Positions 1 through 24,237 of a stretch of DNA of 31,500 nucleotides are shown in pieces. The DNA is taken from IMG/VR virus record IMGVR_UViG_2671180556_000014; one strand, written 5' to 3'. Numbering within the stretch: position 1 is the stretch's first letter; every line of letters starts with the position of its first letter. The notes beneath the pieces are model-generated. The model ran no database searches. It saw only the letters and a program-made list of their open reading frames with translations, and had not been told where the DNA came from. The DNA comes from a virus (lineage: Duplodnaviria > Heunggongvirae > Uroviricota > Caudoviricetes). Both the position numbers and the translations under genes were made by a program.

Positions 1-996
1 TTATGGACGCATTATGGACATTCCTGACACCGGGTTAAGAGTCACAGCATCTTGTAAGAAATCCGGTGCAAAGTGTGCGTAGGTCATAGTTTGCTGAATG
101 TTAGAATGACCCAGGATGCGCTGCAATGTGATTATGTTACCTCCATTCATTATAAAATGTGTGGCAAATGTATGCCTCAAAACATGCACTGCCTGTCCGT
201 CAGGTAAATCGGGTTTTACTTCCCTGAGAGCGTTGCGCACTTTGTAGTAACTGGCATTAAAAAGCCTGCCTGAGTTTTTGGTCTTGATCCGTTTAATCAG
301 GTCCTGCGAAACGGGAATTGTCCTGCGCTTTCCGTTTTTAGTTTTCATAAACGTAACCATCTGGTTAATGATGTGTTCAGCTTTTAAATTAGACACTTCA
401 CTCCAGCGTCCACCAGTAGAAAGGCAGACCAGAGTCGCATTTAATTCATCACCATCGAGCATGGATAACAGCCGTGTAATCTCTTCACTGGACAAAAAAG
501 CCATTTCTGTAACAGCTTCACGTAATCGCTTAACCTCACGGAACGGGTTGTGAGAATGGTATTCACCGGCGTCAATTAACTTGGTGAACATCCCGCTCAT
601 TATTGCCAGATGCCGATTTACGCTGGCTGGTTTTAGACCATCGTTCATCATTACAACGCGATAATCAGTTATCGTTTTCTTTGTTAGCTGGTCAGCTCTG
701 GACACTCCCATTTCTGCAAATTTGGCGATTATTGTCGTCAAACGCCCCCGTTCAATATCTCCACGCTCATGTGATTTTCCGTGATATATCCACCATCTGC
801 CTAACAACTCTGTAAGAGTTCGGCGGTCGGCTGGCTTCTCCAGCCACTCTTTGTTGTGGTAGTTAACCAGTACATGACGTTCGAATGCTTGAGCTTCACC
901 TTTAGTTTTAAATTTCCGCCTGATACGTTTTCCATCTGCACCCTGCGGTCTGACGTCCACTTCATAACGACCATCATCGAGCTTTTTAATAGACAT
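1..996 (-). CDS. int: Phage integrase, tyrosine recombinase (P2 Int-like), 331 aa
   Basis: Full-length minus-strand ORF; C-terminal HVLRHTFATHF...GHSNIQQTMTYAH region typical of the tyrosine recombinase catalytic domain; located at prophage end next to the C repressor as in P2. Window begins exactly at its stop codon. Confidence 0.9.
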   Translation of the reverse strand: MSIKKLDDGRYEVDVRPQGADGKRIRRKFKTKGEAQAFERHVLVNYHNKEWLEKPADRRTLTELLGRWWIYHGKSHERGDIERGRLTTIIAKFAEMGVSRADQLTKKTITDYRVVMMNDGLKPASVNRHLAIMSGMFTKLIDAGEYHSHNPFREVKRLREAVTEMAFLSSEEITRLLSMLDGDELNATLVCLSTGGRWSEVSNLKAEHIINQMVTFMKTKNGKRRTIPVSQDLIKRIKTKNSGRLFNASYYKVRNALREVKPDLPDGQAVHVLRHTFATHFIMNGGNIITLQRILGHSNIQQTMTYAHFAPDFLQDAVTLNPVSGMSIMRP

Positions 997-3354: not shown

Positions 3355-3626
3355 GTATTCGTATTGAAATTGGCGAACGTTATGTCGTTACCAGTGACAG
3401 CTTTCAGTTTATTCTCCACGAGAAAAAGAGAGCGGAAAGCGGTAAAAACGCCGGTCAGGAGTGGCTGGCGGTGGTTGGTTATTACCCGAAATTAAGCCAG
3501 CTCGTTTCCGGCCTGATGCATCACGATATTCTGACCGGAAGCGCAAAGTCTTTTGCTGATTTAAACGCGCAGGTTGAGCAACTCAGCAAGCGTTGTTCAG
3601 AGGCTTTTGGCTCATATGGCCGTTAA
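3351..3626 (+). CDS. Hypothetical early protein (91 aa)
   Basis: ORF overlapping upstream stop and the start of A; conserved position just before the replication gene. Confidence 0.5.
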   Translation: MSIRIEIGERYVVTSDSFQFILHEKKRAESGKNAGQEWLAVVGYYPKLSQLVSGLMHHDILTGSAKSFADLNAQVEQLSKRCSEAFGSYGR

Positions 3627-5895
3627 AGCCTCCGGGCATTTTGTCCCTCCGTCAGCATTTGCCGCAGGCACCGGTGAGATGTTTACCGGTGCTTATGCAT
3701 GGAACGCGCCACGCGAGGCCGTCGGGCGCGAAAGACCCCTTACACGTGACGAGATGCGTCAGGTGCAAGGTGTTTTATCCACGATTAACCGCCTGCCTTA
3801 CTTTTTGCGCTCGCTGTTTACTTCACGCTATGACTACATCCGGCGCAATAAAAGCCCGGTACACGGGTTTTATTTCCTCACATCCACTTTTCAGCGTCGT
3901 TTATGGCCGCGCATTGAACGTGTGAATCAGCGCCATGAAATGAACACCGACGCGTCGTTGCTGTTTCTGGCAGAGCGTGACCATTATGCGCGTCTGCCGG
4001 GAATGAATGACAAGGAGCTGAAAAAGTTTGCCGCCCGTATCTCATCGCAGCTTTTCATGATGTATGAGGAACTCTGCGATGCATGGGTTGATGCACATGG
4101 TGAAAAAGAATCGCTGTTTACGGATGAGGCGCAGGCTCACCTGTATGGTCATGTTGCTGGCGCTGCACGTGCTTTCAATATTTCCCCGCTCTACTGGAAA
4201 AAATACCGTAAAGGACAGATGACCACGAGGCAGGCATATTCTGCCATTGCCCGCCTGTTTAACGATGAGTGGTGGACTCATCAGCTTAAAGGCCAGCGTA
4301 TGCGCTGGCATGAGGCGTTACTGATAGCTGTCGGGGAGGTCAATAAAGACCGTTCTCCTTATGCCAGTAAACACGCCATTCGTGATGTGCGTGCGCGCCG
4401 CCAGGCAAATCTGGAATTTCTTAAATCGTGTGACCTTGAAAACAGGGAAACCGGCGAGCGCATCGACCTTATCAGTAAGGTGATGGGCAGTATTTCTAAT
4501 CCTGAAATTCGCCGGATGGAGCTGATGAACACCATTGCCGGTATTGAGCGTTACGCCGCCGCAGAGGGTGATGTGGGGATGTTTATCACGCTGACCGCGC
4601 CGTCAAAGTATCACCCGACACGTCAGGTCGGAAAAGGCGAAAGTAAAACCGTTCAGCTTAATCACGGCTGGAACGATGAGGCATTTAATCCAAAGGATGC
4701 GCAGCGTTATCTCTGCCGTATCTGGAGCCTGATGCGCACGGCATTCAAGGATAATGATTTACAGGTCTACGGTTTGCGAGTCGTCGAGCCACACCACGAC
4801 GGAACGCCGCACTGGCATATGATGCTTTTTTGTAATCCACGCCAGCGTAACCAGATTATTGAAATCATGCGTCGCTACGCGCTCAAAGAGGATGGCGACG
4901 AAAGAGGAGCCGCGCGAAACCGTTTTCAGGCAAAACACCTTAACCAGGGCGGTGCTGCGGGGTATATCGCGAAATACATCTCAAAAAACATCGATGGCTA
5001 TGCACTGGATGGTCAGCTCGATAACGATACCGGCAGACCGCTGAAAGACACTGCTGCGGCTGTTACCGCATGGGCGTCAACGTGGCGCATCCCACAATTT
5101 AAAACGGTTGGTCTGCCGACAATGGGGGCTTACCGTGAACTACGCAAATTGCCTCGCGGAGTCAGCATTGCTGATGAGTTTGACGAGCGCGTCGAGGCTG
5201 CACGCGCCGCCGCAGACAGTGGTGATTTTGCGTTGTATATCAGCGCGCAGGGTGGGGCAAATGTCCCGCGCGATTGTCAGACTGTCAGGGTCGCCCGTAG
5301 TCCGTCGGATGAAGTTAACGAGTACGAGGAAGAAGTCGAGAGAGTGGTCGGCATTTACGCGCCGCATCTCGGCGCGCGTCATATTCATATCACCAGAACG
5401 ACGGACTGGCGCATTGTGCCGAAAGTTCCGGTCGTTGAGCCTCTGACTTTAAAAAGCGGCATCGCCGCGCCTCGGAGTCCTGTCAATAACTGTGGAAAGC
5501 TCACCGGTGGTGATACTTCGTTACCGGCTCCCACACCTTCTGAGCACGCCGCAGCAGTGCTTAATCTGGTAGATGACGGTGTTATCGAATGGAATGACCC
5601 GGAGGTCGTGAGGGCGCTCAGAGGTGCATTAAAACACGGCCTGAGAAGACCAAACCGTCAGCAAAGAAACGGAAGCCCGTTAAAACCGCATGAAATAGCG
5701 CCATCGGCCAGACTGACCCGGTCTGAACGATTGCAAATCACCCGTATCCGCGTTGACCTTGCTCAGAACGGTATCAGGCCGCAGCGATGGGAGCTTGAGG
5801 CGCTGGCGCGTGGCGCGACCGTAAATTATGACGGGAAAAAATTCACGTATCCGGTCGCTGATGAGTGGTCGGGATTCTGGCATCAATTTGAGTAA
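3616..5895 (+). CDS. A: Replication initiation protein A (rolling-circle HUH endonuclease), 759 aa
   Basis: ATG at 3616 gives MAVKASGHFVPP...; contains HUH-type motif PHWHMMLF; length close to the 761 aa I recall for P2 A. ORF-track start at 3574 is an upstream extension. Confidence 0.9.
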   Translation: MAVKASGHFVPPSAFAAGTGEMFTGAYAWNAPREAVGRERPLTRDEMRQVQGVLSTINRLPYFLRSLFTSRYDYIRRNKSPVHGFYFLTSTFQRRLWPRIERVNQRHEMNTDASLLFLAERDHYARLPGMNDKELKKFAARISSQLFMMYEELCDAWVDAHGEKESLFTDEAQAHLYGHVAGAARAFNISPLYWKKYRKGQMTTRQAYSAIARLFNDEWWTHQLKGQRMRWHEALLIAVGEVNKDRSPYASKHAIRDVRARRQANLEFLKSCDLENRETGERIDLISKVMGSISNPEIRRMELMNTIAGIERYAAAEGDVGMFITLTAPSKYHPTRQVGKGESKTVQLNHGWNDEAFNPKDAQRYLCRIWSLMRTAFKDNDLQVYGLRVVEPHHDGTPHWHMMLFCNPRQRNQIIEIMRRYALKEDGDERGAARNRFQAKHLNQGGAAGYIAKYISKNIDGYALDGQLDNDTGRPLKDTAAAVTAWASTWRIPQFKTVGLPTMGAYRELRKLPRGVSIADEFDERVEAARAAADSGDFALYISAQGGANVPRDCQTVRVARSPSDEVNEYEEEVERVVGIYAPHLGARHIHITRTTDWRIVPKVPVVEPLTLKSGIAAPRSPVNNCGKLTGGDTSLPAPTPSEHAAAVLNLVDDGVIEWNDPEVVRALRGALKHGLRRPNRQQRNGSPLKPHEIAPSARLTRSERLQITRIRVDLAQNGIRPQRWELEALARGATVNYDGKKFTYPVADEWSGFWHQFE

Positions 5896-6021
5896 GGATC
5901 TCATCTATACAGTATAAGTAGTTTTGACTGTAATTGATTGTTTTTTATATGGTTGCATGCATTAAATCTACGTCAATATCATTATGTTATAATGCATTAC
6001 TTAAAAATGTTGGAGATAAAA

Positions 6022-6213
6022 ATGTTAAAGCCTGCAGATGTTGTTTGTTTGAAAAGCGGTGGATTTAAAATGACTGTATCTGACTCTACTGAAACTCATG
6101 CTAAATGTATTTGGCATGATAAAGAAGGAGTTTTGCACGAGGAGTCATTCTCCATTGATTTACTGGAAATAGCAGAGAGTAAAAGTGGTATGCTTTGTCG
6201 TCCACGTAAGTGA
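6022..6213 (+). CDS. Small protein with DUF2158/YodC-like motif (63 aa from ATG 6022)
   Basis: Motif VVCLKSGGFKMTV followed by CIWHD resembles the YodC/DUF2158 small-protein family (from memory). GGAG 6 nt upstream of ATG 6022; upstream in-frame starts at 5938 (TTG, 91 aa) or 5992 are possible. AT-rich. Confidence 0.45.
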   Translation: MLKPADVVCLKSGGFKMTVSDSTETHAKCIWHDKEGVLHEESFSIDLLEIAESKSGMLCRPRK

Positions 6214-6240
6214 ATCATAATAAAATTCACGGGGGAAAGT

Positions 6241-6921
6241 ATGAAACAATACAGCGAATTAGAAAACAATGTTAAGAGATTCATTGTTGAGCATGAAAAA
6301 GGGATTTCTATTGATGATATTCATCATAAGTTCCGGATGAAGGATGGTCAGAATCGCAAGATGGCAGATTATCTTATTGATAATAAAAAGATAATTTTGG
6401 AGATGAAAAGTCTTTTTTCTGACAGGGTCAAGAATGTCAATGATAAACTGAATGAGTTGGTTAAAACTGATAGTTGGCTTGCAAAAAACTGGCATGGTGC
6501 TATTCATTTAGAAGAGTTGATAAAAAGACACCCAGACTCAAAGCGATTTAGAAATGATATAATGAACTTTGCTTATGAAAATATTAAAACAAAGATAGTT
6601 AAGGAAGCTAATAAGCAAATAAATGCAACAAAGGATGTTTTGGATTTAAATGACTCGATTGGCGGGTTGATTTTGTTAAATGATAATGTCTTTTCACATG
6701 AGTCTAATTATTTGTCAGATGAAATATTATATTTGCTAGGCACAAAGAGATATTCGAGTGTTGAGTTTGTGGTTTATATTGCAAAATTGATTGATAAACA
6801 GGTTGATGTTTGTGTGCTACTTGACAGTCAATCTAAAAATAAAAATTATATTGAATGGTATATGAATAATGTTTTTTTATTGAACTGGGCGTCTTTTAAT
6901 AAATATGCAATAAAGATGTAG
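6241..6921 (+). CDS. Hypothetical protein, 226 aa, AT-rich accessory cargo (function unknown)
   Basis: Long ORF in strongly AT-rich DNA with lysine/asparagine-rich composition; ATG preceded by GGGGGAAAG; sits in the A-to-cos accessory slot. No catalytic motif recognised. Confidence 0.55.
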   Translation: MKQYSELENNVKRFIVEHEKGISIDDIHHKFRMKDGQNRKMADYLIDNKKIILEMKSLFSDRVKNVNDKLNELVKTDSWLAKNWHGAIHLEELIKRHPDSKRFRNDIMNFAYENIKTKIVKEANKQINATKDVLDLNDSIGGLILLNDNVFSHESNYLSDEILYLLGTKRYSSVEFVVYIAKLIDKQVDVCVLLDSQSKNKNYIEWYMNNVFLLNWASFNKYAIKM

Positions 6922-7240
6922 TGGTGTGGATGGATATGAAATGAGTCAACCAAGATGCACCTTGGTCAGTAATCTCATGTGAGATACCACATATAACACC
7001 AAAAGTGTCAGGTTGATGGCCATTGTTCACCGTTTACAGCAGATTATGGTCAACGAAAATCTGACGCCTGACGAGCTGGTCGGGTGTGCCGAAATAGTCT
7101 GGGATAATTACGGGCGGTTTAACTATATCGGTCAGTCCAGAGTTGCGCCACCACCACGCAGACGATAGAGAACGCCGCCAGTCGTGAAACTTGTTTTCAG
7201 GCTGGCGGGGTTGAACAACGAGCGAAGTGAGGCGTTAGCA

Positions 7241-8182
7241 TTAAGTTAATTTTAATGAATGGTACTCTATCGAGCTGATTGTAGATGCGATATATTTACG
7301 ATCATTTACAGAGAGTATTGCCGCTAGTAGACGACATACCAGAGCCTGCATTTGTAGCAATATATCGCTACCATATTGACAATCATTGATACTAGAGAAA
7401 CCAAGCGGTTGCCCATTAAAAATGGCTTCATGAAAATTATCATTGCGTATAACTGAAACATTACATTCATCTGTTGCCCATGACGGGATTTTTACACCGT
7501 AATTTTCGCACATCCAATACACTCTATTTTGATGAGATGGTTTTTTCTCTTTAATGACTTTATCCCTTTTATCCCATGCTATAGCAAAACAGCAATCAAG
7601 AGCCATATAAAGATACTGGAATTTCTCAAAGGAAAGGTATAGTGGGTTATGTGACAGGAATAGGGAGTGTATCACCGCAGCTATTCTTTTAATGGAGCGA
7701 TCATCTTTTTGTTTGTCTTTTATATAGTTAAGTGCTAGCTCTATTACTTCTTTTTCAGAGCATCCAACGAGAATAAAGTCGGTTAACTTAGTGGGCTTGA
7801 TAGTGGTTGCATCAAGAAAACCAGCGTCAGTGGTTGTCAATCTTATACCCTTGAAAAAAGAGAGGCACCACACAACAAAGTTGAGAGTTTCTAACGAGGA
7901 TGTGTTTTTTAATTTTAGTGTGTGCGTTTTGGGCATGCCGAATACTCGGTAACTATAAGGCATTGTGCATGTGTCACCATTAAGGTTATATACCTTTCGA
8001 TTCCCAGGGTATATCCAACCATTAACAACGTTTTTATCATTGTTAATACGTTCCACGTTCTCAATAAGACCGGGTAAAGTACGCAAAGAAAATTGTTCAG
8101 TCTCAATGTTAACTTCTACTGGATAGTATCCAAACTCCGAAATAATCTCATTTGGTTGCTGTTCGTCAACTTCACCTTGCAT
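7241..8182 (-). CDS. Hypothetical protein, 313 aa, AT-rich accessory cargo (function unknown)
   Basis: Long minus-strand ORF in AT-rich DNA immediately left of cos, convergent with the 226-aa gene. No Walker, HUH or other motif recognised. Confidence 0.55.
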   Translation of the reverse strand: MQGEVDEQQPNEIISEFGYYPVEVNIETEQFSLRTLPGLIENVERINNDKNVVNGWIYPGNRKVYNLNGDTCTMPYSYRVFGMPKTHTLKLKNTSSLETLNFVVWCLSFFKGIRLTTTDAGFLDATTIKPTKLTDFILVGCSEKEVIELALNYIKDKQKDDRSIKRIAAVIHSLFLSHNPLYLSFEKFQYLYMALDCCFAIAWDKRDKVIKEKKPSHQNRVYWMCENYGVKIPSWATDECNVSVIRNDNFHEAIFNGQPLGFSSINDCQYGSDILLQMQALVCRLLAAILSVNDRKYIASTISSIEYHSLKLT

Positions 8183-8420
8183 AACTTTCTCCGTTCAAAA
8201 ACAGGCACGATAATTCTCGTAAGCCTATCATGTTCGCAAAGTATCCATACCTGTGGATTTTGTAAATTTAAGTTGATTTGTCATTAAATAAGCTGTTGCA
8301 TGCAACAAGTGAATGTTTTTGCATGCGTCGGGGATGTCCGTTCAGGCTGCGTGCGGTCAGGACTGGTGCGGATCCATAGTATCTATGCAACTGCATTAAA
8401 ACCGCCCCATGAAGCGGGCG

Positions 8421-8439
8421 GGCGAGGCGGGGAAAGCAC
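8421..8439. other. cos cohesive-end site (P2-type 19-nt sequence GGCGAGGCGGGGAAAGCAC)
   Basis: Exact 19-mer that I recall as the P2 cohesive end, located just beyond Q as in P2; flanked by G-rich repeated motifs. Confidence 0.55.
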
Positions 8440-8608: not shown

Positions 8609-9643
8609 TCAGCCGTTGTCAGTGTCCAGTGAGTAGTTTTTAAATCGGATGACCTCCTGACCGAGCCAGCCGTTTATCTCGCGGATCCTGTCCTGTAACG
8701 GGATAAGCTCATTGCGGACAAAGACCTTTGCCACTTTCTCAATATCACCCAGCGACCCGACGTTCTCCGGCTTGCCCCCCATCAACTGAAAGGGGATGCG
8801 GTGCGCGTCCAGCAGGTCAGCGGCGCTGGCTTTTTTGATATTAAAAAAATCGTCCTTCGTTGCCACTTCACTGAGCGGGATAATTTTAATGCCGTCGGCT
8901 TTCCCCTGCGGGGCATAGAGAAACAGATTTTTAAAGTTATTGCGGCCTTTTGACTTAACCATGTTTTCGCGGAGCATTTCGATATCGTTGCGATCCTGCA
9001 CGGCATCAGTGACGTACATGATGTATCCGGCATGTGCGCCGTTTTCGTAATACTTGCGGCGGAACAGCGTGGCCGACTCATTCAGCCAGGCAGAGTTAAG
9101 GGCGCTGAGATATTCCGGCAGGCCGTACAGCTCCTGATTAATATCCGGCTCCAGCAGATGAAACACGGAGCCGGGCGTGAAAGGTGTCGGCTCGTTGAAG
9201 GACGGCACCCACCAGTAAACATCCTCCTCCACACCACGGCGGGTATATTTTGCCGGTGAGGTTTCCAGTCTGATGACCTTACCGGTGGTGCTGTATCGCT
9301 TTTCCAGAAACGCATTACCGAACACCAGAAAATCCAGCACAAAGCGGCTGAAATCCTGCTGGGAAAGCCACGGATGCGGGATAAATGTCGAGGCCAGAAT
9401 ATTACGTTTGACGTAAATCGGTGAGCTGTGATGCACGGCAGCACGCAGGCTTTTTGCCAGACCGGTAAAGCTGACCGGTGGCTCATACCATCTGCCGTTA
9501 CTGATGCACTCGACGTAATCCAGAATGTCACGGCGGTCGAGTACCGGCACCGGCTCACCAAAGGTGAATGCCTCCATTTTCGGGGCGCTGGCGGTCATTG
9601 TTTTTGCCGCAGGTCGCGGTGTTTTCCCTTTTTTCTTGCTCAT
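8609..9643 (-). CDS. Q: Portal protein Q, 344 aa
   Basis: Length matches P2 Q (344 aa); start overlaps the terminase stop; position next to cos. Confidence 0.85.
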   Translation of the reverse strand: MSKKKGKTPRPAAKTMTASAPKMEAFTFGEPVPVLDRRDILDYVECISNGRWYEPPVSFTGLAKSLRAAVHHSSPIYVKRNILASTFIPHPWLSQQDFSRFVLDFLVFGNAFLEKRYSTTGKVIRLETSPAKYTRRGVEEDVYWWVPSFNEPTPFTPGSVFHLLEPDINQELYGLPEYLSALNSAWLNESATLFRRKYYENGAHAGYIMYVTDAVQDRNDIEMLRENMVKSKGRNNFKNLFLYAPQGKADGIKIIPLSEVATKDDFFNIKKASAADLLDAHRIPFQLMGGKPENVGSLGDIEKVAKVFVRNELIPLQDRIREINGWLGQEVIRFKNYSLDTDNG

Positions 9644-11415
9644 CAGTAAAACTCCAGAATGGTGGATGTCAGCGGGGTGCTGATACCGGCGGTGAGTGGC
9701 TCATTTAACAGGGCGTGCATGGTCGCCCAGGCGAGGTCGGCGTGGCTGGCTTCCTCGCTGCGGCTGGCCTCATAGGTGGCGCTGCGTCCGCTGCTGGTCA
9801 TGGTCTTGCGGATAGCCATAAACGAGCTGGTGATGTCGGTGGCGCTGACGTCATATTCCAGACAGCCACGGCGGATAACGTCTTTTGCCTTGAGCACCAT
9901 TGCGGTTTTCATTTCCGGCGTGTAGCGGATGTCGCGCGCGGCGGGATAGAACGAGCGCACGAGCTGGAACACGCCGACACCGAGGCCGGTGGCATCAATA
10001 CCGATGTATTCGACGTTGTATTTTTCGGTGAGTTTGCGGATGGATTCCGCCTGGGTGGCAAAGTCCATGCCTTTCCACTGATGGCGCTCAAGTATTCTGA
10101 ATTTGCCACCGGCCACCACCGGCGGTGCCAGCACCACGCATCCGGCGCTGTCGCCACGGTGTGACGGGTCGTAACCAATCCATACCGGGCGGGAGCCGAA
10201 CGGATTGGTGGCAAACGGCGCATAGTCTTCCCATTCTTCCAGCGTGTCGACCATGCAGCGTTGCAGCTCCTCGAACGGGAACACTGACGCCTTGTCGTCA
10301 ACAAATTCACACATGAACAGGTTTTTAAAATCGTCGGCGCTGTTTTCGCGTTTGAGCTGCTCAATGTCGAACAACGTGCAGCCACCTTTCAGGGCGTCCT
10401 CAATGGTGACAATCTGCCGCCACTGGCCGTCCGCACAGAGAAGCCCACCGGCAAGGGCGTTATGACTGACGTCGATTTCCACGCGTTCGGCGGCGCTGGC
10501 GCGTCCCCGGTTGAACAGTTCACCCGACCAGAACGGGTAGGCGTCGTGCGCCAGCGTGGACGGGGTGGAGAAATAGGTCGAGCGCAGGTGACTCTGTGAG
10601 GCCATACCTGATGCCACCTTACGCAGTACCTGAAAATTCGGGATCCAGAAAATCTCGTCGACGTACAGGTCGCCGTTATGGCTCTGTGCGGTGTTGGAGT
10701 TGGTGCCGAGAAAAATCAGTTTTGCGCCGTTATTGCCCAGGACAATCGGGTCACCGGTCAGGTCAACGTCAACCAGCCGGGCAAAGGCGATGATGTATTC
10801 ACGGAACACATACGCCTGCGTTTTACTGGCCGACAGAAAAATCTGGTTATGACCGGTTTTCAGGGCGCGCAGCAGCGCCTCGCGGGAAAAATAAAACGTC
10901 GCGCCAATCTGGCGGGATTTCAGGATATCGCGGATGCGGTGCTCAAGCCCGGCGCGATACCAGTGCAACTGATATTCGAAAGACTGCTCAAAGAAAATCT
11001 GCTCCAGCTTTTCGATGGCCTCGTCACTGAAAAAATTCTTTTTCGGTTTGCGACGCCCGCCTTTGTTGCGGTTAGCGACGTTCGGATTAAGGTCTGCCTC
11101 GTTGCCGGTCTGGCTGTAGCGGTTGACCCGTGCCAGTCGTTCAATCTGGCGTCCGAGCAGGTCAATTTCCTTGAAGTCACCGCCGGTTTTCTGCGGTTTG
11201 ATGATGAGCTGGGTCAGTCGCGCTTCCAGACTCATTTCGACACGGCTGATGGGGGCAACGCTGTCCCAGCCGTCGCGCTGTTTCCAGCTCTGCACCGTCG
11301 GGCGTTTCATCTGCAACATGGCGGCAATCTGCGGCACGGAAAACCCCTGCCAGTACAGCAGCGCCGCCTGACGACGCGGGTCGTGTAAAAGAGTGGTGTC
11401 TGTGGTGATGGTCAT
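9643..11415 (-). CDS. P: Terminase large subunit P (ATPase/nuclease), 590 aa
   Basis: ATG at 11415 (MTITTDTT...) gives 590 aa, matching P2 P; divergent from O across a late promoter region. Confidence 0.85.
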   Translation of the reverse strand: MTITTDTTLLHDPRRQAALLYWQGFSVPQIAAMLQMKRPTVQSWKQRDGWDSVAPISRVEMSLEARLTQLIIKPQKTGGDFKEIDLLGRQIERLARVNRYSQTGNEADLNPNVANRNKGGRRKPKKNFFSDEAIEKLEQIFFEQSFEYQLHWYRAGLEHRIRDILKSRQIGATFYFSREALLRALKTGHNQIFLSASKTQAYVFREYIIAFARLVDVDLTGDPIVLGNNGAKLIFLGTNSNTAQSHNGDLYVDEIFWIPNFQVLRKVASGMASQSHLRSTYFSTPSTLAHDAYPFWSGELFNRGRASAAERVEIDVSHNALAGGLLCADGQWRQIVTIEDALKGGCTLFDIEQLKRENSADDFKNLFMCEFVDDKASVFPFEELQRCMVDTLEEWEDYAPFATNPFGSRPVWIGYDPSHRGDSAGCVVLAPPVVAGGKFRILERHQWKGMDFATQAESIRKLTEKYNVEYIGIDATGLGVGVFQLVRSFYPAARDIRYTPEMKTAMVLKAKDVIRRGCLEYDVSATDITSSFMAIRKTMTSSGRSATYEASRSEEASHADLAWATMHALLNEPLTAGISTPLTSTILEFY

Positions 11416-11588
11416 GAATACCTCGCCGTGATGAATACACGGCAAGGCTACTGAGTCGCGCCCCGCGATTCGCTAAGGTGCTGTTGTGTCAGTGATAAGC
11501 CATCCGGGACTGATGGCGGAGGATGCGCATCGTCGGGAAACTGATGCCGACATGTGACTCCTCTAATCACTATTCAGGACTCCTGACA
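11416..11588. promoter_or_regulatory. Divergent late promoter region (P-Q leftward, O operon rightward), Ogr-dependent by analogy
   Basis: Intergenic region between divergent P and O, where P2 carries its Ogr-activated late promoters. Ogr half-sites not confidently resolved. Confidence 0.4.
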
Positions 11589-12443
11589 ATGGCAAAAAAA
11601 GCATCAAAATTCTTTCGTATCGGCGTTGAGGGTGACACCTGTGACGGGCGTGTCATCAGTGCGCAGGATATTCAGGAAATGGCCGAAACCTTTGACCCGC
11701 GTGTCTATGGTTGCCGCATTAACCTGGAACATCTGCGCGGCATCCTGCCTGACGGTATTTTTAAGCGTTATGGCGATGTGGCCGAACTGAAGGCCGAAAA
11801 GATTGACGATGATTCGGCGCTGAAAGGCAAATGGGCGCTGTTTGCGAAAATCACCCCGACCGATGACCTTATCGCGATGAACAAGGCCGCGCAGAAGGTC
11901 TACACCTCAATGGAAATTCAGCCGAACTTTGCCAATACCGGCAAATGTTATCTGGTGGGTCTGGCCGTCACCGATGACCCGGCAAGCCTCGGCACGGAAT
12001 ACCTGGAATTCTGCCGCACGGCAAAACACAACCCTCTGAACCGCTTCAAATTAAGCCCTGAAAACCTGATTTCAGTGGCAACGCCTGTTGAGCTGGAATT
12101 TGAAGACCTGCCTGAAACCGTGTTCACCGCCCTGACCGAAAAGGTGAAATCCATTTTTGGCCGCAAACAGGCCAGCGATGACGCCCGTCTGAATGACGTG
12201 CATGAAGCGGTGACCGCTGTCGCTGAGCATGTGCAGGAAAAACTGAGCGCCACTGAGCAGCGCCTTGCTGAGATGGAAACCGCCTTTTCCGCACTTAAGC
12301 AGGATGTGACTGACAGGACGGATGAAACCAGTCAGGCATTCACCCGCCTGAAAAACAGTCTCGACCACACCGAAAGTCTGACCCAGCAGCGCCGCAGTAA
12401 AGCCACCGGCGGTGGCGGTGACGCCCTGATGACGAACTGCTGA
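11589..12443 (+). CDS. O: Capsid scaffolding protein O, 284 aa
   Basis: ATG at 11589 gives 284 aa (P2 O length); coiled-coil-like C-terminus; precedes major capsid gene. Confidence 0.8.
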   Translation: MAKKASKFFRIGVEGDTCDGRVISAQDIQEMAETFDPRVYGCRINLEHLRGILPDGIFKRYGDVAELKAEKIDDDSALKGKWALFAKITPTDDLIAMNKAAQKVYTSMEIQPNFANTGKCYLVGLAVTDDPASLGTEYLEFCRTAKHNPLNRFKLSPENLISVATPVELEFEDLPETVFTALTEKVKSIFGRKQASDDARLNDVHEAVTAVAEHVQEKLSATEQRLAEMETAFSALKQDVTDRTDETSQAFTRLKNSLDHTESLTQQRRSKATGGGGDALMTNC

Positions 12444-12501
12444 CCGGCGTCAGTCAGTCCGGGAAAACCTTCACGATTAACCCTTAATTTCAGGAAAAAC
12501 T

Positions 12502-13575
12502 ATGCGCCAGGAAACCCGCTTTAAATTTAATGCCTACCTGTCCCGTGTTGCCGAACTGAACGGCATCGACGCCGGTGATGTGTCGAAAAAATTCACCGTT
12601 GAACCGTCGGTCACCCAGACCCTGATGAACACCATGCAGGAGTCCTCTGACTTTCTGACCCGCATCAACATTGTGCCGGTCAGCGAAATGAAAGGGGAAA
12701 AAATTGGTATCGGTGTCACCGGCTCCATCGCCAGCACCACCGACACCGCCGGTGGCACCGAGCGTCAGCCGAAGGACTTCTCGAAGCTGGCGTCCAACAA
12801 GTACGAATGCGACCAGGTTAACTTCGATTTTTATATCCGCTACAAAACGCTGGACCTGTGGGCGCGTTATCAGGATTTCCAGCTCCGTATCCGTAACGCC
12901 ATTATCAAACGCCAGTCCCTTGATTTCATCATGGCCGGTTTTAACGGCGTGAAGCGTGCCGAAACCTCTGACCGCAACAGTAATCCGATGCTGCAGGATG
13001 TGGCGGTCGGCTGGCTGCAGAAATACCGCAATGAAGCCCCGGCGCGCGTGATGAGCAAGGTCACTGACGAGGAAGGTCACACGACCTCTGAGGTCATCCG
13101 CGTGGGTAAGGGCGGTGATTATGCCAGCCTTGATGCACTGGTGATGGATGCGACCAACAATCTGATCGAACCGTGGTATCAGGAAGACCCTGACCTTGTG
13201 GTGATAGTGGGACGTCAGTTACTGGCGGACAAGTATTTCCCCATCGTTAACAAGGAGCAGGACAACAGCGAAATGCTGGCCGCTGACGTCATCATCAGCC
13301 AGAAACGCATCGGTAACCTGCCAGCGGTACGCGTCCCGTACTTCCCGGCGGATGCGATGCTCATCACGAAGCTGGAAAACCTGTCCATCTACTACATGGA
13401 TGACAGCCATCGCCGCGTGATTGAGGAAAACCCGAAACTCGACCGCGTGGAGAACTACGAGTCAATGAACATTGATTACGTGGTGGAAGACTACGCCGCC
13501 GGTTGTCTGGTGGAAAAAATTAAGGTCGGTGATTTCTCCACACTGGCTAAAGCGACCGCAGAGCCGGGAGCGTAA
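12502..13575 (+). CDS. N: Major capsid protein N, 357 aa
   Basis: Length identical to P2 N; AGGA upstream of ATG; position after scaffold gene. Confidence 0.9.
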   Translation: MRQETRFKFNAYLSRVAELNGIDAGDVSKKFTVEPSVTQTLMNTMQESSDFLTRINIVPVSEMKGEKIGIGVTGSIASTTDTAGGTERQPKDFSKLASNKYECDQVNFDFYIRYKTLDLWARYQDFQLRIRNAIIKRQSLDFIMAGFNGVKRAETSDRNSNPMLQDVAVGWLQKYRNEAPARVMSKVTDEEGHTTSEVIRVGKGGDYASLDALVMDATNNLIEPWYQEDPDLVVIVGRQLLADKYFPIVNKEQDNSEMLAADVIISQKRIGNLPAVRVPYFPADAMLITKLENLSIYYMDDSHRRVIEENPKLDRVENYESMNIDYVVEDYAAGCLVEKIKVGDFSTLAKATAEPGA

Positions 13576-13578
13576 CCG

Positions 13579-14322
13579 ATGACGAGTCCCGCACAGCGCC
13601 ACATGATGCGGGTCTCGGCAGCGATGACCGCGCAGCGGGAAGCCGCCCCGCTGCGACATGCAACTGTCTATGAGCAGATGCTGGTTAAGCTCGCCGCAGA
13701 CCAGCGCACACTGAAAGCGATTTATTCAAAAGAGCTGAAGGCCGCGAAAAAGCGCGAACTGCTGCCGTTCTGGTTGCCGTGGGTGAACGGCGTGCTGGAG
13801 CAGGGCAAAGGCGCACAGGATGACATTCTGATGACGGTCATGCTGTGGCGTCTGGATACCGGCGATATTGCCGGTGCGCTGGAGATTGCCCGTTATGCCC
13901 TGAAATACGGTCTGACCATGCCGGGTAAACACCGCCGCACCCCGCCGTACATGTTCACCGAGGAGGTGGCACTTGCGGCCATGCGCGCCCACGCTGCCGG
14001 TGAGTCTGTGGATCCCCGCCTGCTGACGGACACCCTCGAACTGACCGCCACGGCTGACATGCCTGATGAAGTGCGCGCAAAGCTGCACAAAATCACCGGT
14101 CTGTTTCTGCGTGACGCTGGTGATGCCGCCGGTGCGCTGGCTCACCTGCAACGTGCGACACAGCTCGACTGTCAGGCAGGCGTCAAAAAAGAGATTGAAC
14201 GACTGGAGCGGGAGCTGAAACCGAAGCCGGAGCCGCAGCCAAAAGCGGCCACCCGCGCCCCGCGTAAGACCCGGAGCGTGACACCGGCAAAACGTGGACG
14301 CCCGAAAAAGAAAGCCAGTTAA
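13579..14322 (+). CDS. M: Terminase small subunit M, 247 aa
   Basis: Length identical to P2 M; basic C-terminal tail (KRGRPKKKAS); GGGAG upstream of ATG. Confidence 0.85.
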   Translation: MTSPAQRHMMRVSAAMTAQREAAPLRHATVYEQMLVKLAADQRTLKAIYSKELKAAKKRELLPFWLPWVNGVLEQGKGAQDDILMTVMLWRLDTGDIAGALEIARYALKYGLTMPGKHRRTPPYMFTEEVALAAMRAHAAGESVDPRLLTDTLELTATADMPDEVRAKLHKITGLFLRDAGDAAGALAHLQRATQLDCQAGVKKEIERLERELKPKPEPQPKAATRAPRKTRSVTPAKRGRPKKKAS

Positions 14323-14421
14323 CAACCGAATGCGCCCCGCGCCAGGGCGGCACGCCGGTCAGTGAGGGTGACTCACCTGACGCTGTACCGGCGTCCACCG
14401 CCCGACTTTTCAGAGGTAGTC

Positions 14422-14931
14422 ATGATGACGCTGATTATTCCGCGAAAGGAGGCTCCCGTGTCCGGTGAGGGTACGGTGGTCATCCCGCAACCGGCAGGCG
14501 ACGAGCCGGTGATTAAAAACACGTTCTTTTTTCCCGATATCGACCCGAAGCGCGTCCGGGAACGTATGCGCCTTGAGCAGACCGTCGCCCCCGCCCGTCT
14601 GCGTGAGGCCATCAAGTCAGGCATGGCGGAGACGAATGCGGAGCTGTACGAGTACCGCGAACAGAAAATTGCCGCCGGTTTTACGCGTCTGGCGGAAGTC
14701 CCGGCGGACGACATCGACGGTGAAAGCATCAAAGTTTTTTACTACGAGCGCGCCGTGTGTGCGATGGCGACCGCATCGCTTTATGAGCGTTATCGCGGCG
14801 TGGATGCCAGTGCCAAAGGCGACAAGAAGGCCGACAGCATTGACAGCACCATTGATGAGCTGTGGCGGGATATGCGCTGGGCAGTGGCGCGCATCCAGGA
14901 CAAGCCGCGCTGCATTGTGAGTCAAATCTGA
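14422..14931 (+). CDS. L: Head completion/stabilisation protein L, 169 aa
   Basis: ATG at 14422 with GAGGTAG upstream gives 169 aa (P2 L length); ORF-track start at 14362 is an upstream extension. Confidence 0.8.
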   Translation: MMTLIIPRKEAPVSGEGTVVIPQPAGDEPVIKNTFFFPDIDPKRVRERMRLEQTVAPARLREAIKSGMAETNAELYEYREQKIAAGFTRLAEVPADDIDGESIKVFYYERAVCAMATASLYERYRGVDASAKGDKKADSIDSTIDELWRDMRWAVARIQDKPRCIVSQI

Positions 14932-15134
14932 TGAAGACCTTTGCGCTACAGGGCGACACGCTCGACGCCATCTGTGTCCGGTATTACGGGCGCACTGAGG
15001 GCGTGGTTGAGACCGTGCTCGCCGCAAATCCGGGACTGGCTGAACTGGGTGCGGTGCTGCCGCACGGCACCGCCGTCGAACTGCCCGACGTTCAGACCGC
15101 GCCCGTGGCTGAAACTGTCAATCTGTGGGAGTAA
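14931..15134 (+). CDS. X: Tail protein X (LysM-like), 67 aa
   Basis: ATG at 14931 overlaps the L stop (ATGA); MKTFALQGDTLDAICVRYYG... is 67 aa as for P2 X. Confidence 0.85.
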   Translation: MKTFALQGDTLDAICVRYYGRTEGVVETVLAANPGLAELGAVLPHGTAVELPDVQTAPVAETVNLWE

Positions 15135-15137
15135 CGC

Positions 15138-15419
15138 ATGACAGCAGAAGAAAAAAGCGTCCTGTCGCTTTTCATGATTGGGGTGCTGATTGTTGTCGGC
15201 AAGGTGCTTGCCGGTGGTGAACCCATCACCCCGCGTCTGTTTATCGGGCGCATGTTGCTCGGTGGTTTTGTCTCGATGGTTGCCGGTGTTGTTCTGGTGC
15301 AGTTTCCTGACCTGTCACTGCCTGCGGTGTGCGGCATCGGCTCCATGCTGGGTATCGCCGGTTATCAGGTGATTGAGATTGCCATTCAGCGCCGCTTTAA
15401 GGGCAGGGGGAAACAGTAA
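15138..15419 (+). CDS. Y: Holin Y, 93 aa
   Basis: Small protein with hydrophobic transmembrane segments and charged C-terminus; directly upstream of endolysin; P2 Y length. Confidence 0.8.
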   Translation: MTAEEKSVLSLFMIGVLIVVGKVLAGGEPITPRLFIGRMLLGGFVSMVAGVVLVQFPDLSLPAVCGIGSMLGIAGYQVIEIAIQRRFKGRGKQ

Positions 15420-15916
15420 TGCCGGTAATTAAAACACATCAGAATATCGCCGCCTTTCTCGACATGCTGGCCGTGTCCGAAGGGACGGCGAATCATCCGC
15501 TGACGAAAAACCGGGGCTATGACGTGATAGTCACCGGACTGGACGGGAAGCCGGAAATTTTCACCGACTACAGTGACCACCCGTTCGCGCATGGCCGACC
15601 GGCGAAGGTGTTTAACCGTCGCGGTGAAAAATCCACGGCCTCCGGTCGCTATCAGCAGCTTTACCTGTTCTGGCCGCATTACCGCAAACAGCTTGCCCTG
15701 CCGGATTTCAGTCCGTTGTCACAGGACAGACTTGCCATTCAGTTGATCCGCGAACGCGGTGCACTGGATGACATCCGGGCGGGACGCATTGAGCGCGCCA
15801 TTTCACGCTGTCGCAATATCTGGGCGTCCCTGCCGGGTGCCGGTTACGGTCAGCGTGAGCATTCACTGGAAAAACTGGTCACCGTCTGGCGTACCGCTGG
15901 CGGCGTACCGGCTTAA
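15419..15916 (+). CDS. K: Endolysin K (lysozyme-like), 165 aa
   Basis: Start overlaps holin stop (TAATG); length identical to P2 K; lysis cassette position. Confidence 0.85.
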   Translation: MPVIKTHQNIAAFLDMLAVSEGTANHPLTKNRGYDVIVTGLDGKPEIFTDYSDHPFAHGRPAKVFNRRGEKSTASGRYQQLYLFWPHYRKQLALPDFSPLSQDRLAIQLIRERGALDDIRAGRIERAISRCRNIWASLPGAGYGQREHSLEKLVTVWRTAGGVPA

Positions 15917-15930
15917 ACGGAGTAAACACC

Positions 15931-19748: not shown

Positions 19749-20352
19749 TTCGCGCCTGCTGCCGACCGGCTCATCACCACTTGAAGTCGCCGCCGCAAAA
19801 GCCTGTGCGGAAATTGAAAAAACGCCGGTCAGTATTCGTGAGCTGTGGAACCCGGATACCTGTCCGGCAAATCTGCTGCCGTGGCTGGCGTGGTCATTTT
19901 CGGTCGACAGGTGGGATGATAAGTGGCCGGAAGCGACAAAACGCGCTGTTATCCGCGATGCGTATTTCATTCACTGCCATAAGGGCACTATTGGTGCGAT
20001 TCGCCGTGTGGTGGAGCCGCTCGGCTATCTGATTGAGGTGAGGGAGTGGTGGCAGCTCAACGAGGAGCCGGGGACGTTCCGCATCGTTGTTGGCGTGCTT
20101 GAGCAGGGTATTACCGAGGAAATGTATCAGGAGCTGGAGCGCCTCGTTGCTGATGCAAAACCGGCGAGCCGCCATCTGACGGGACTGGCTATCAGTTTAA
20201 GTACAACCGGCAACATTTTTGCCGGTGCGGGATGCTATCACGGTGACGCCCTGACGGTTTATCCCTACACCCCGGAGGCCATTATTGTCGGAGGGGATTA
20301 TTTCCCGGCCTCGGCCATTCATTTAATTGATAACCTGAGAGTAAACGCATGA
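19741..20352 (+). CDS. I: Baseplate/tail-fibre attachment protein I, 203 aa
   Basis: Synteny between J and H; start overlaps J stop and end overlaps H start. Confidence 0.8.
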
Positions 20353-21527
20353 CAGTGAAATACTACGCCATTCTGACTAATCAGGGCGCAGCACGGCTGG
20401 CTAACGCGACGATGCTCGGCAGTAAGCTGAATCTGACGCAAATGGCCGTTGGTGATGCGAATGGTGTCTTGCCGACACCAGACCCGGCACAGACAAAACT
20501 GATTAATCAGAAACGCATCGCGCCGCTGAATCTTCTGAGCGTTGATCCGAACAACCAGAGCCAGATTATTGCGGAGCAAATCATCCCTGAGAACGAGGGT
20601 GGATTCTGGATCCGTGAGATTGGGCTTTATGATGATGAAGGCGTACTCATTGCGGTGGCGAACTGCCCGGAAACGTACAAACCGCAGTTACAGGAAGGCA
20701 GTGGTCGTACCCAGACTATCCGCATGATTCTGGTTGTCACGAATACCGAAGCCATCACGCTGAAAATCGACCCGTCGGTGGTACTGGCGACCCGTAAATA
20801 CGTGGATGATGAAGTCCTGGAATTAAAGCTGTATGTGGATGACAAGATGGCAAAACATATTGCCGCACAGGATCCTCATACCCAGTATGCACAGAAACAT
20901 AATCCGACATTTACCGGAGAACCAAAAGCGCCGACGCCTGCCGCAGGAAATAACACCACGCGGATTGCGACCACTGCGTTTGTTCAGGACGCTATTACCG
21001 CTCTGATTAACGGTGCGCCAGCCACGCTGGACACACTGAAAGAAATTGCCGCAGCCATTAACAATGATCCGAAATTCAGCACCACCATTAACAATGCGCT
21101 GTCAGATAAGCAGCCACTGGATGAGACGCTGACTCATTTGAGTGGAAAGGATGTTGCCGGTCTTCTCGCATACCTTGGTTTGGGAGAAGCGGCTAAAAGG
21201 AATGTAGGGACAGGGGCGAATCAGCTACCTGATATGGGTAGCTTCACGCTTTCTGTTTCAGGTACTGGATATCAAAAATTACCATCAGGTTTTATTCTTC
21301 AGTGGGGCTCAATCGGCGCACCAGGCATTGCACAGGATGTAGTAACCCATTTCCCGATTGCATTTCCAAACAGATGTCTGCGTGTTTTGGTCTCACAAGA
21401 CTACACACCAGATAGCGGGGCTGTTGGTTATATTGCCTGTGCAGGTTTTAGTTCCGACCCGGTTAAATTTATATCCAGAGCCAGTACTCCTGGCCTCGGC
21501 GCTTCATTTTTAGCGTTAGGCTGTTAA
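20349..21527 (+). CDS. H: Tail fibre protein H: constant N-terminal part (aa 1-280) joined to variable C-terminal cassette Hv1 in the current orientation, 392 aa
   Basis: N-terminus and the NDPKF...SDKQP region resemble the P2 H / Mu S constant domain; the constant/variable junction at 21189 coincides with a 26-bp invertase crossover site. Confidence 0.85.
21163..21188. other. Invertase crossover site 1 (gix/hix-like, 26 bp) at H constant/variable junction
   Basis: TTCTCGCATACCTTGGTTTGGGAGAA: 12-bp half sites around a 2-bp core, resembling the Gin/Hin/Cin/Pin site pattern; identical in inverted orientation to 22999..23024. Confidence 0.6.
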
Positions 21528-21548
21528 TTTAGCTATATGGAGTGAAAA

Positions 21549-21989
21549 ATGAATTACATATATTCTGCGACTACAAACTCTTTCTATCCGCTGGAGATGA
21601 AAGAGGATTACACTCAAGCTGACTCATGGCCAGATGATGCTGTTGAAGTTGATGAGCAGGTGTATATTGAGTTTTCCGGATTACCGCCGGAAGGAAAAAT
21701 CCGTATCGCTGGAGAAAATGGTTTTCCTGCATGGTCTGAAATTCCACCACCAACGCATGAGGAACAGATTGCTGCAGCCGAATTGGAAAAGCAGCAATTG
21801 ATTAATCAGGCCAACGATTATATGAACAGTAAACAATGGCCTGGTAAAGCGGCGATTGGTCGTCTGAAAGGTGAGGAACTGGCGCAATATAATTTGTGGC
21901 TGGATTATCTGGACGCACTGGAGCTGGTCGATACGTCCAGTGCGCCAGATATTGAATGGCCTACGCCTCCGGCAGTTCAGGCCAGATGA
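21549..21989 (+). CDS. Tail fibre assembly chaperone (G/Tfa-like) paired with Hv1, 146 aa
   Basis: Immediately downstream of H; C-terminus (LWLDYLDALELVD...APDIEWPTPP) resembles tail fibre assembly proteins; convergent with a second tfa gene. Confidence 0.75.
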   Translation: MNYIYSATTNSFYPLEMKEDYTQADSWPDDAVEVDEQVYIEFSGLPPEGKIRIAGENGFPAWSEIPPPTHEEQIAAAELEKQQLINQANDYMNSKQWPGKAAIGRLKGEELAQYNLWLDYLDALELVDTSSAPDIEWPTPPAVQAR

Positions 21990-22554
21990 CGTCCGGCGCG
22001 GTGCTGGTATCTGTTGCCGTCACCGCGTCAATGTAATCCAGCACGGCGTTAAGTCGGGTTGTTTCTGCCTGAGTCAGTTTCCGTCCGGCCTGTAATTTCA
22101 GCTGAATCAGACTAATGGAAGCCATTGCTGCATCAATCAGTGACTGGCGCTGTGCTTCTGCTGCTTCTACTGCGGCGTTATGCTGTGCCTCAGTATCTGT
22201 CACCCATTTCTCACCATCCCATTTATCATATGGCGTTAACGGTGAAAGCGTGACATAACCGTTTTTGATGGCACCGATATAATCCACTGTAACAGCTGCG
22301 CCATTTTCTGTTGAGTAAACAGTCTCATTGCGATGGTCTTCTTCATGGCTCCATCCCTTACCCGTAAATACTGCCACTTTCCCCGGAATGTTTTCGCCCG
22401 GGTCAATACCAGTGGAACAGGCGGGCATACTTACGCCAGTATTAATATATTCATCAGACCAGCCCGTATACTCAGATGTTTCAGCATCATAATAAAAACA
22501 ACGCATATCGCCCGGCACTGTAGCCAGCCCATTTTCATCAAAAACAGGTTTCAT
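21961..22554 (-). CDS. Alternative tail fibre assembly chaperone (Tfa, paired with Hv2), 197 aa
   Basis: Minus-strand ORF convergent with and overlapping the 3' end of the plus-strand tfa; C-terminal motif (LNAVLDYIDAVT...APDVIWPELP) parallels the other tfa. Confidence 0.7.
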   Translation of the reverse strand: MKPVFDENGLATVPGDMRCFYYDAETSEYTGWSDEYINTGVSMPACSTGIDPGENIPGKVAVFTGKGWSHEEDHRNETVYSTENGAAVTVDYIGAIKNGYVTLSPLTPYDKWDGEKWVTDTEAQHNAAVEAAEAQRQSLIDAAMASISLIQLKLQAGRKLTQAETTRLNAVLDYIDAVTATDTSTAPDVIWPELPEA

Positions 22555-23623: not shown

Positions 23624-23624
23624 A

Positions 23625-24176: not shown

Positions 24177-24188
24177 CGTTTATGAAAA
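24163..24188. other. Invertase crossover site 3 (native right-hand site next to invertase gene)
   Basis: TTCTCCCAAACCAACGTTTATGAAAA: same left half as site 2, right half from unique flank; 50 bp upstream of the invertase start. Confidence 0.6.
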
Positions 24189-24237
24189 TGCAGAGATAAC
24201 GGGCAACTGGCATCATCTCCGGTTTTTATTCAGGGGG

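What the first reader, a model, noticed from the sequence alone, without database searches (positions are those of the whole stretch)
7241..8182. Uncharacterised 313-aa protein encoded leftward next to cos, in the position of P2 old
A long, clean ORF in AT-rich DNA occupies the place of the old gene. It lacks the ATPase Walker motif that an OLD-family protein would have near its N-terminus, and I see no nuclease, kinase or NTPase signature. Position and composition make it a candidate exclusion or abortive-infection effector of an undescribed type.
Basis: partly seen in the sequence, partly recalled or inferred. Interest (0 to 1): 0.65.

Follow-up and report, generated by a model that had tools for sequence, protein, structure and literature searches.

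The report
Uncharacterised HEPN RNase in P2 hotspot
The 313-residue gene next to the cos site of this P2-like prophage is real and encodes an unstudied two-domain protein whose C-terminal half is a HEPN ribonuclease domain, so it is most likely one more single-gene "suicide RNase" phage-defence protein, not a new kind of effector.

The parts
7241..8182 (-). ORF313 coding sequence (313 aa plus stop codon), a single-gene unit
   Evidence: ORF list. The exact protein is WP_053895502.1, 'hypothetical protein'. dN/dS is 0.15-0.34. It matches PHROG 5937 over its full length, function unknown. No conserved neighbour appears across contexts.
7766..8182 (-). N-terminal alpha/beta domain (residues 1-139), the putative sensor or regulatory domain
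7244..7765 (-). C-terminal HEPN domain (residues 140-313). Proposed helices: H1 161-176, H2 184-207, an insert with helix 217-228, H3 243-252, H4 274-289
7430..7447 (-). RNDNFH, the HEPN Rx4H catalytic motif (R246, N247, H251), followed by E252
   Evidence: Translation. Conservation in 212 homologues is R 99%, N 96%, H 98%, E 94%. R246 and H251 are invariant in 57 sequences down to 23% identity.
8189..8192 (-). GGAG ribosome-binding site, 6 nt upstream of the ATG
   Evidence: Sequence read. The same feature is annotated for ORF313 in P2-EC67, AM157369.
8257..8284 (-). Sigma70-like promoter match (ATGACA-16-CAAAAT) upstream of ORF313
   Evidence: Consensus scan, 9 of 12 matches. This is a pattern match only, not evidence of function.
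8421..8439 (+). P2-type cos cohesive-end sequence. It marks the hotspot boundary and is context, not part of the gene
   Evidence: One exact match in the window, none in 100 shuffles.

Best explanation
ORF313 is a stand-alone, two-domain HEPN ribonuclease carried as cargo in the cos-proximal defence hotspot of a P2-like prophage. Shown here: the gene is real and under selection. Its C-terminal ~170 residues adopt the HEPN fold and keep the R-N-x3-H-E catalytic motif and an invariant upstream acidic residue (E186). The architecture is fixed across about 660 sequence clusters. It travels without a partner gene on prophages, integrative islands, a transposon and other mobile regions, sometimes beside known defence genes. 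Inferred: like other HEPN defence proteins, it dimerises to form a composite, metal-independent RNase site that is kept off in the lysogen. The unique N-terminal domain, possibly together with the conserved H217-x2-R220 insert of the HEPN domain, senses a cue of infection by a competing phage. Activation leads to cleavage of cellular RNA. By analogy with ApeA, HepS, DARNA, PrrC and RloC, the most likely targets are tRNA anticodon loops. Translation stops and the infection aborts, which protects the lysogen population and the resident prophage. Rough confidence by step: HEPN domain about 0.9, active RNase about 0.75, anti-phage role about 0.6, tRNA as target about 0.35.
Confidence: 0.6

Rival explanations
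1. It is an addiction or toxin module. On this reading, the HEPN RNase is a toxin that stabilises the prophage or other mobile element (post-segregational killing or self-limiting growth control), not a sensor of foreign phage.
Against: No MNT or other conserved adjacent antitoxin gene appears in any of the contexts examined. The 140-residue conserved N-terminal domain is better explained as a regulator or sensor. In Aeromonas the gene is a lone chromosomal insertion.
Confidence: 0.1
2. It serves the phage instead of defending the host. It could be a counter-defence or RNA-processing enzyme, for example a HEPN nuclease that degrades host signalling oligonucleotides or processes host or phage RNA during P2 development.
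For: Some HEPN proteins degrade cyclic oligoadenylate signals or process rRNA (the introduction of the DARNA preprint). The gene is phage-borne and close to cos.
Against: Most homologues are not in phages but in chromosomal islands and transposons, sometimes beside defence genes. The locus is dispensable and hypervariable among P2-like phages. The gene has its own promoter-like site and the opposite orientation to the replication genes, as old does.
Confidence: 0.1
3. It is a lysogenic-conversion or otherwise non-defence cargo protein with a catalytically irrelevant HEPN-like helical bundle, for example a ligand- or nucleotide-binding protein.
Against: Non-catalytic HEPN domains typically lose the Rx4-6H motif. 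Here R, N, H and E are 94-99% conserved over 212 sequences, which argues for a selected active site.
Confidence: 0.12
4. It is a diverged, shortened member of the ApeA family, a 'mini-ApeA'. It would keep ApeA's split HEPN domain and ligand-pocket residues and be activated by a small nucleotide product of phage-induced DNA degradation.
For: Domain-restricted hhalign aligns H217-x2-R220-x2-W223 with Ec2ApeA H487-x2-R490-x2-W493 and RN-x3-H with R502-N503-x3-H507. It gives P about 0.01, against 0.19-0.32 for reversed or wrong-domain controls. H487 and R490 are ligand-pocket residues needed for Ec2ApeA defence. HepT is the closest solved fold to both. [quoted passage not shown]
Against: The hhalign probability is only 0.75-4%. 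HMM-to-sequence scores stay below 5 bits. None of 57 members hits the PADLOC ApeA model at E<=1, whereas Ec2ApeA hits it at 2e-12. The protein is half as long, and its N-terminal domain is alpha/beta where ApeA's is helical. P0093 itself does not hit Pfam HEPN_Apea.
Confidence: 0.2

Closest known systems
ApeA (Gao et al. 2020; Ec1/Ec2ApeA, bioRxiv 10.64898/2026.01.26.701840)
   Same: Both are single-gene systems with a C-terminal HEPN domain carrying an R-N-x3-H motif. In both, an H-x2-R-x2-W stretch lies upstream of the motif. HepT is the nearest solved fold for both. Both are found in E. coli and other Gammaproteobacteria on mobile islands.
   Different: ApeA is about 583 aa, with a helical N-terminal domain, a Mid domain and a split HEPN domain that forms decamers. 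ORF313 is 313 aa with an alpha/beta N-terminal domain. There is no significant profile match. In ApeA the H-x2-R and RN-x3-H motifs are 15 residues apart; here they are 29 apart.
HepS (Gifsy-1 prophage of Salmonella; Nature 2026, PMC13043305)
   Same: Both are prophage-encoded, partner-less HEPN proteins. HepS is an abortive-infection protein that spares its own prophage and cuts tRNA.
   Different: HepS is a minimal HEPN protein (under 250 aa, catalytic H105) that senses a tail-tip J peptide directly. ORF313 has an extra 140-residue N-terminal domain and its motif lies at 246-251.
DARNA / PD-T7-3 (bioRxiv 10.64898/2026.02.22.705581)
   Same: Both are single two-domain proteins combining a HEPN domain with a domain of unknown function. 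In DARNA the RNase is switched on by an infection cue and cuts tRNA anticodon loops.
   Different: The domain order is reversed: DARNA has the HEPN domain at the N terminus (R117-x4-H122) and the sensor at the C terminus. No PADLOC PD-T7-3 hit was found for ORF313.
P2 Old (OLD family: ABC ATPase plus TOPRIM)
   Same: Same genomic slot, same leftward orientation next to cos, and the same low-GC cargo character. Old is an abortive exclusion protein, recently reported to act as a tRNase.
   Different: The two proteins are unrelated. ORF313 has no Walker A motif, no ABC ATPase and no TOPRIM domain.
HepT / DUF86 HEPN toxins of HEPN-MNT toxin-antitoxin systems (PDB 7AE2, 5YEP)
   Different: HepT is about 130-140 aa and is neutralised by an adjacent MNT antitoxin. 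ORF313 has no MNT neighbour and carries its own N-terminal domain.
DS-11 (CBS-HEPN) and other HEPN systems from DefensePredictor (Science 2026, PMC13092281)
   Same: The concept is the same: a one-protein defence with a ligand-binding regulatory domain fused to a HEPN nuclease.
   Different: The regulatory domain differs (CBS in DS-11). No ORF313 sequence fragments were found in the supplementary files held for that paper.

Membership tests
HEPN superfamily | [quoted passage not shown] | tested here: met
HEPN superfamily | Conserved Rx4-6H motif at the end of helix 3, with a polar residue (N, D or H) after R | tested here: met
   R246-N-D-N-F-H251 lies in helix 243-252. Conservation in 212 homologues is R 99%, N 96% and H 98%. 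The rule is taken from PMC3710099.
HEPN superfamily | Second conserved acidic residue in helix 2, close to the motif | tested here: inconclusive
   E186 is 100% conserved and lies at the start of helix 184-207. The Ex3[KR] form of the motif is not present.
HEPN superfamily | Match to a curated HEPN sequence profile | tested here: not met
   The protein has no Pfam hit. Among 57 members there are only two single sub-threshold hits: HEPN_RiboL-PSP at E 0.074 and HEPN_Apea at E 0.15. There is no NCBIfam HEPN hit.
HEPN superfamily | Metal-independent RNase activity from a dimeric composite active site | not testable with these tools
   This needs biochemistry or a multimer structure.
ApeA defence system | Recognised by the ApeA profile (PADLOC PDLC02157) | tested here: not met
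   None of 57 family members hits it at E<=1. As controls, the Ec2ApeA homologue P0299 hits at 2.2e-12 and P0368 at 5.3e-9.
ApeA defence system | Profile-profile homology of the HEPN_ApeA domain | tested here: inconclusive
   hhalign over the full length gives probability 0.75%. Restricted to the C-terminal domains it gives P about 0.01 and probability 3.6-4.1%, with both motifs co-aligned, while controls give P 0.19-0.32. hmmsearch scores stay below 5 bits.
ApeA defence system | Architecture of about 580 aa: helical N-terminal domain, Mid domain and split HEPN domain | tested here: not met
   ORF313 is 313 aa with an alpha/beta N-terminal domain.
ApeA defence system | Single-gene system without partner genes | tested here: met
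   The neighbours differ in every context examined.
OLD family (P2 old) | N-terminal ABC ATPase with Walker A motif, plus a C-terminal TOPRIM nuclease | tested here: not met
   There is no [AG]x4GK[ST] motif and no AAA, ABC or TOPRIM Pfam hit.
HEPN-MNT (HepT) toxin-antitoxin | Adjacent minimal nucleotidyltransferase antitoxin gene | tested here: not met
   No NTP_transf or MNT gene lies next to ORF313 in the window or next to homologues.
P2 gpA-gpQ hotspot cargo (Rousset et al. 2022) | Located between gpA and cos/gpQ of a P2-like prophage and variable among relatives | tested here: met
   The gene order is shown. Only 99 of 5426 E. coli genomes carry a homologue, while the flanks occur in 2169. 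The family is listed as system 11 with 218 loci in Table S5B.
P2 gpA-gpQ hotspot cargo (Rousset et al. 2022) | Demonstrated anti-phage activity | not tested
   The family is absent from the tables of tested systems, S2A and S2B (sequence search), and from the DefensePredictor supplements. No paper was found by accession or name.

The most novel reading that the evidence does not exclude
The protein would be a compact, ligand-gated HEPN nuclease. Its unmatched N-terminal alpha/beta domain (near-invariant R79, T86, H87, R114, D124, D135), together with the conserved H217-x2-R220-x2-W223 insert of the HEPN domain, would form a pocket for a small-molecule or oligonucleotide alarm signal of infection. 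That would be either a minimal, independently evolved or deeply diverged counterpart of the dinucleotide-sensing pocket of ApeA, or a previously unseen sensor domain class.
Probability: 0.2. Interest if true: 0.6.

Novelty: new variant of a known kind. Interest (0 to 1): 0.42.

Why it matters
If the prediction holds, an unannotated gene becomes a named single-gene defence system. That gene is present in about 1-2% of E. coli genomes (99 of 5426 complete genomes; 218 of 18,150 P2 hotspot loci) and in about 660 sequence clusters across Proteobacteria. At 313 aa it would be among the smaller sensor-plus-HEPN immune proteins, which would make it a tractable model for how a sensor domain gates a HEPN RNase. 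It would also fill a gap in PADLOC- and Pfam-type annotation of prophage hotspots. It does not open a new class of mechanism, because HEPN abortive-infection RNases, including prophage-borne ones, are well established.

Tried and rejected
1. Pfam, NCBIfam and PADLOC scans of the protein and of 31 or 57 homologues gave nothing usable. PHROGs gives only 'unknown function'.
2. A profile search of PDB sequences gave only weak matches (E about 0.01-0.07) to the N terminus of ribonucleotide reductase R2. I rejected these as chance.
3. A Foldseek search of the PDB with the first, weaker model (pLDDT 79, active-site region below 50) found nothing. Rebuilding the alignment with more diverged homologues raised pLDDT to 93.8.
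4. ApeA membership was tested by fetching Ec2ApeA homologues and running hhalign and hmmsearch. The result was not significant.
5. The idea that ORF226 and ORF313 form a two-gene system was rejected. The genes are convergent and are separated by a block conserved in other P2-like phages. ORF313 occurs without ORF226, and ORF226 homologues occur without ORF313.
6. Homologues that looked like domain fusions (P0157, P0234) are frameshift read-through tails.
7. DARNA/PD-T7-3 and HepS were considered as possible identities and rejected, because their motif positions and sizes differ.
8. Rfam, tRNA and repeat scans of the region gave nothing.
9. Literature searches by accession, by ORF name and by HEPN plus P2 found no characterisation. 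Only open-access text is searchable, so prior work cannot be excluded.

Full report
1. The observation. The window is an almost complete P2-like (Peduovirus) prophage. It runs from integrase (1-996, minus strand) through replication gene A (3574-5895), portal Q (8609-9643, minus) and terminase P (9643-11445, minus) to the head and tail genes. The ORF named in the finding is present exactly as stated: 7241-8182, minus strand, ATG start, 313 aa. A GGAG ribosome-binding site lies 6 nt upstream (8189-8192) and a sigma70-like promoter match at 8257-8284. The 19-nt P2 cohesive-end sequence lies at 8421-8439, so the gene starts 240 bp from cos. The ORF has 37% GC, against 53% for gene A and 56% for Q/P. 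It has no Walker A motif.

The ORF is not a chance reading frame. Its exact protein is in NCBI as WP_053895502.1. Three diverged phage alleles (81%, 78% and 68% protein identity) give dN/dS of 0.15-0.34. A profile search of 1.84 billion representative proteins finds 660 clusters at E<=1e-3, of which 198 are at E<=1e-30. Residues 246-251 are RNDNFH (nt 7430-7447).

2. What the protein is. No Pfam, NCBIfam or PADLOC model matches it or its homologues. PHROG 5937 matches over the full length but has no function assigned. In an alignment of 57 sequences down to 23% identity, the only invariant residues are G112, E186, R246, H251, G261 and R284. In 212 sequences, R246, N247, H251 and E252 are 99%, 96%, 98% and 94% conserved and E186 is 100% conserved.

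3. Surroundings and independence. The interval between gene A and cos holds a DUF2158 ORF (5938-6213), a 226-aa ORF (6241-6921, plus strand) and ORF313. A 258-bp block (6981-7238) is 91-93% identical in P2-like phages that carry other cargo. The same ORF226 plus ORF313 pair was deposited as P2-EC67 ORF226/ORF313 (AM157369) and occurs in phage vB_EcoM-720R8.

The two genes are nevertheless independent. They are convergent. ORF313 alleles sit beside quite different genes in Yersinia phage vB_YpM_46, in vB_EcoM-613R3 and in Salmonella phage MET_P1_103_31. 99 of 5426 complete E. coli genomes carry an ORF313 homologue but only 27 carry ORF226. ORF226 homologues occur in Citrobacter P2-like prophages and on a Pantoea IncFII plasmid without ORF313.

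Distant ORF313 homologues (45-50% identity) are lone genes in several settings. One is a P. aeruginosa island beside Gabija-type genes and DUF932/ParB. One is next to a DUF4238 gene in Acinetobacter; a DUF4238 protein is a validated defence system in Rousset et al.. Others lie in a TniB/Mu-transposase element in Stenotrophomonas, in an integrase/resolvase island in P. viridiflava and in a mobile-looking region in Buttiauxella. In Aeromonas veronii the gene is a single insertion among housekeeping genes. No antitoxin-like partner is conserved.

4. Mechanism. Shown here: a selected, partner-less, mobile-element-borne protein with a HEPN fold and an intact HEPN catalytic motif, in a locus that experimentally holds defence systems. 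Inferred: it is an abortive-infection RNase whose N-terminal domain keeps the HEPN site off until a phage cue arrives.

The closest working models are three single HEPN proteins that stop phage by cutting tRNA anticodon loops. ApeA is activated by 5'-phosphorylated deoxydinucleotides bound in a pocket away from the active site. DARNA/PD-T7-3 is activated by ssDNA presented by phage SSB. HepS of prophage Gifsy-1 is activated by a tail-tip peptide. tRNA is therefore the most probable target, but that is analogy only.

Four rivals cannot be excluded: an addiction toxin, a phage-serving or counter-defence nuclease, a non-catalytic HEPN-like protein, and a diverged 'mini-ApeA'. The first three are disfavoured by the absence of an antitoxin, by the mostly non-phage distribution and by the conservation of the motif, respectively.

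5. Comparison with known families. It is not an OLD-family protein: there is no Walker A motif, ABC ATPase or TOPRIM domain. It is not DARNA or HepS, whose motif position, size and domain order differ.

ApeA was tested directly. I recovered the Ec2ApeA family from the 399 residues printed in the preprint's supplement. Full-length hhalign gives probability 0.75%. Restricted to the C-terminal domains it gives P about 0.01 and probability about 4%, against P 0.19-0.32 for reversed and wrong-domain controls. That alignment puts H217-x2-R220-x2-W223 on Ec2ApeA H487-x2-R490-x2-W493 and RN-x3-H on R502-N503-x3-H507, with a 14-residue insert in ORF313. H487 and R490 are ligand-pocket residues required for Ec2ApeA function, so the resemblance is intriguing. 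It is not significant, however: HMM-to-sequence scores stay below 5 bits, no member hits the PADLOC ApeA model even though Ec2ApeA does, and the architectures differ.

I therefore file the protein under the HEPN superfamily, as a family not covered by current profile libraries, and not under ApeA. One caution applies: genuine Ec2ApeA homologues also miss Pfam HEPN_Apea, so the absence of a Pfam hit says little.

6. Prior knowledge. Rousset et al. 2022 list this family (the 68%-identical allele) as P2-hotspot system 11 in Table S5B. It has 218 occurrences, no domain and no comment. It is not among the systems they cloned. It is not in the held DefensePredictor supplements. The 2026 NAR study tested unknown genes from P4 and none from P2. 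Searches by accession, by ORF name and by topic found nothing. The searchable library covers only open-access text, so an existing characterisation elsewhere cannot be ruled out.

7. Verdict. Novelty: a new variant of a known kind, that is, a HEPN abortive-infection RNase with a new family-specific sensor domain. Interest is moderate (0.42). The family is widespread, compact and untested and would be easy to validate, but a positive result would extend a well-populated class and would not reveal a new principle.

Noticed in passing
window 5938-6921 (+): A DUF2158 small ORF (5938-6213, matching Pfam DUF2158 at E 1.2e-7) and a 226-aa ORF (6241-6921, about 30% GC) form a separate cargo module between gene A and ORF313. 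The ORF226 family is tiny (26 clusters, Enterobacteriaceae only). It matches no Pfam, PADLOC or NCBIfam model. It also occurs in Citrobacter P2-like prophages without ORF313 and on a Pantoea ananatis IncFII conjugative plasmid. Its function is unknown, and it may be another defence candidate.
   Followed up: partly
window 6981-7238: This block of about 258 bp holds a 51-aa ORF at 7013-7168. It is 91-93% identical in many P2-like phages that carry other cargo, for example the Wphi gp92 region, a P2 record (NC_070904.1) and the Yersinia phages. It appears to split the gpA-cos hotspot into two independently exchanged slots and may act as a recombination anchor.
   Followed up: partly
window 20349-24837: This is an invertible tail-fibre cassette in the place of P2 Z/fun. 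It comprises a fibre gene (20349-21527, +), a chaperone (21549-21989, +), an alternative chaperone (21961-22554, -), an alternative fibre C-terminal part (22554-23531, -) and a serine invertase with Resolvase and HTH_7 domains (24238-24837, +). A 165-aa ORF with no Pfam hit (23719-24216, -) lies between the alternative fibre part and the invertase.
   Followed up: partly
window 7667-7687 (-), residues 166-172 of ORF313: A second Rx5H-like pair (R166...H172, 'RIAAVIH') lies in the first helix of the HEPN domain. H172 is 89% and R166 is 68% conserved in 212 homologues, so it is not a family-wide motif. Its role is unknown.
   Followed up: no
P0244 (homologue found): One homologue reads S-D where the family has R246-N247, while keeping H-E. 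This is apparently a decayed or altered active site.
   Followed up: no
P0299, P0350, P0383, P0401 (Ec2ApeA family): Genuine Ec2ApeA homologues get no Pfam HEPN_Apea hit at E<=0.01, and only some hit the PADLOC ApeA model. Current ApeA profiles are therefore narrow, and a negative scan is weak evidence against kinship.
   Followed up: yes
L003-L006 (P. aeruginosa), 9567-15924: The P. aeruginosa homologue lies about 3 kb from a Gabija-like gene pair (an OLD-like TOPRIM ATPase of 712 aa plus a UvrD helicase of 599 aa). The island also carries DUF932, ParB_N and a YhcG/DUF1016 nuclease gene, as well as several unannotated genes of 160-360 aa that might be further defence candidates.
   Followed up: no
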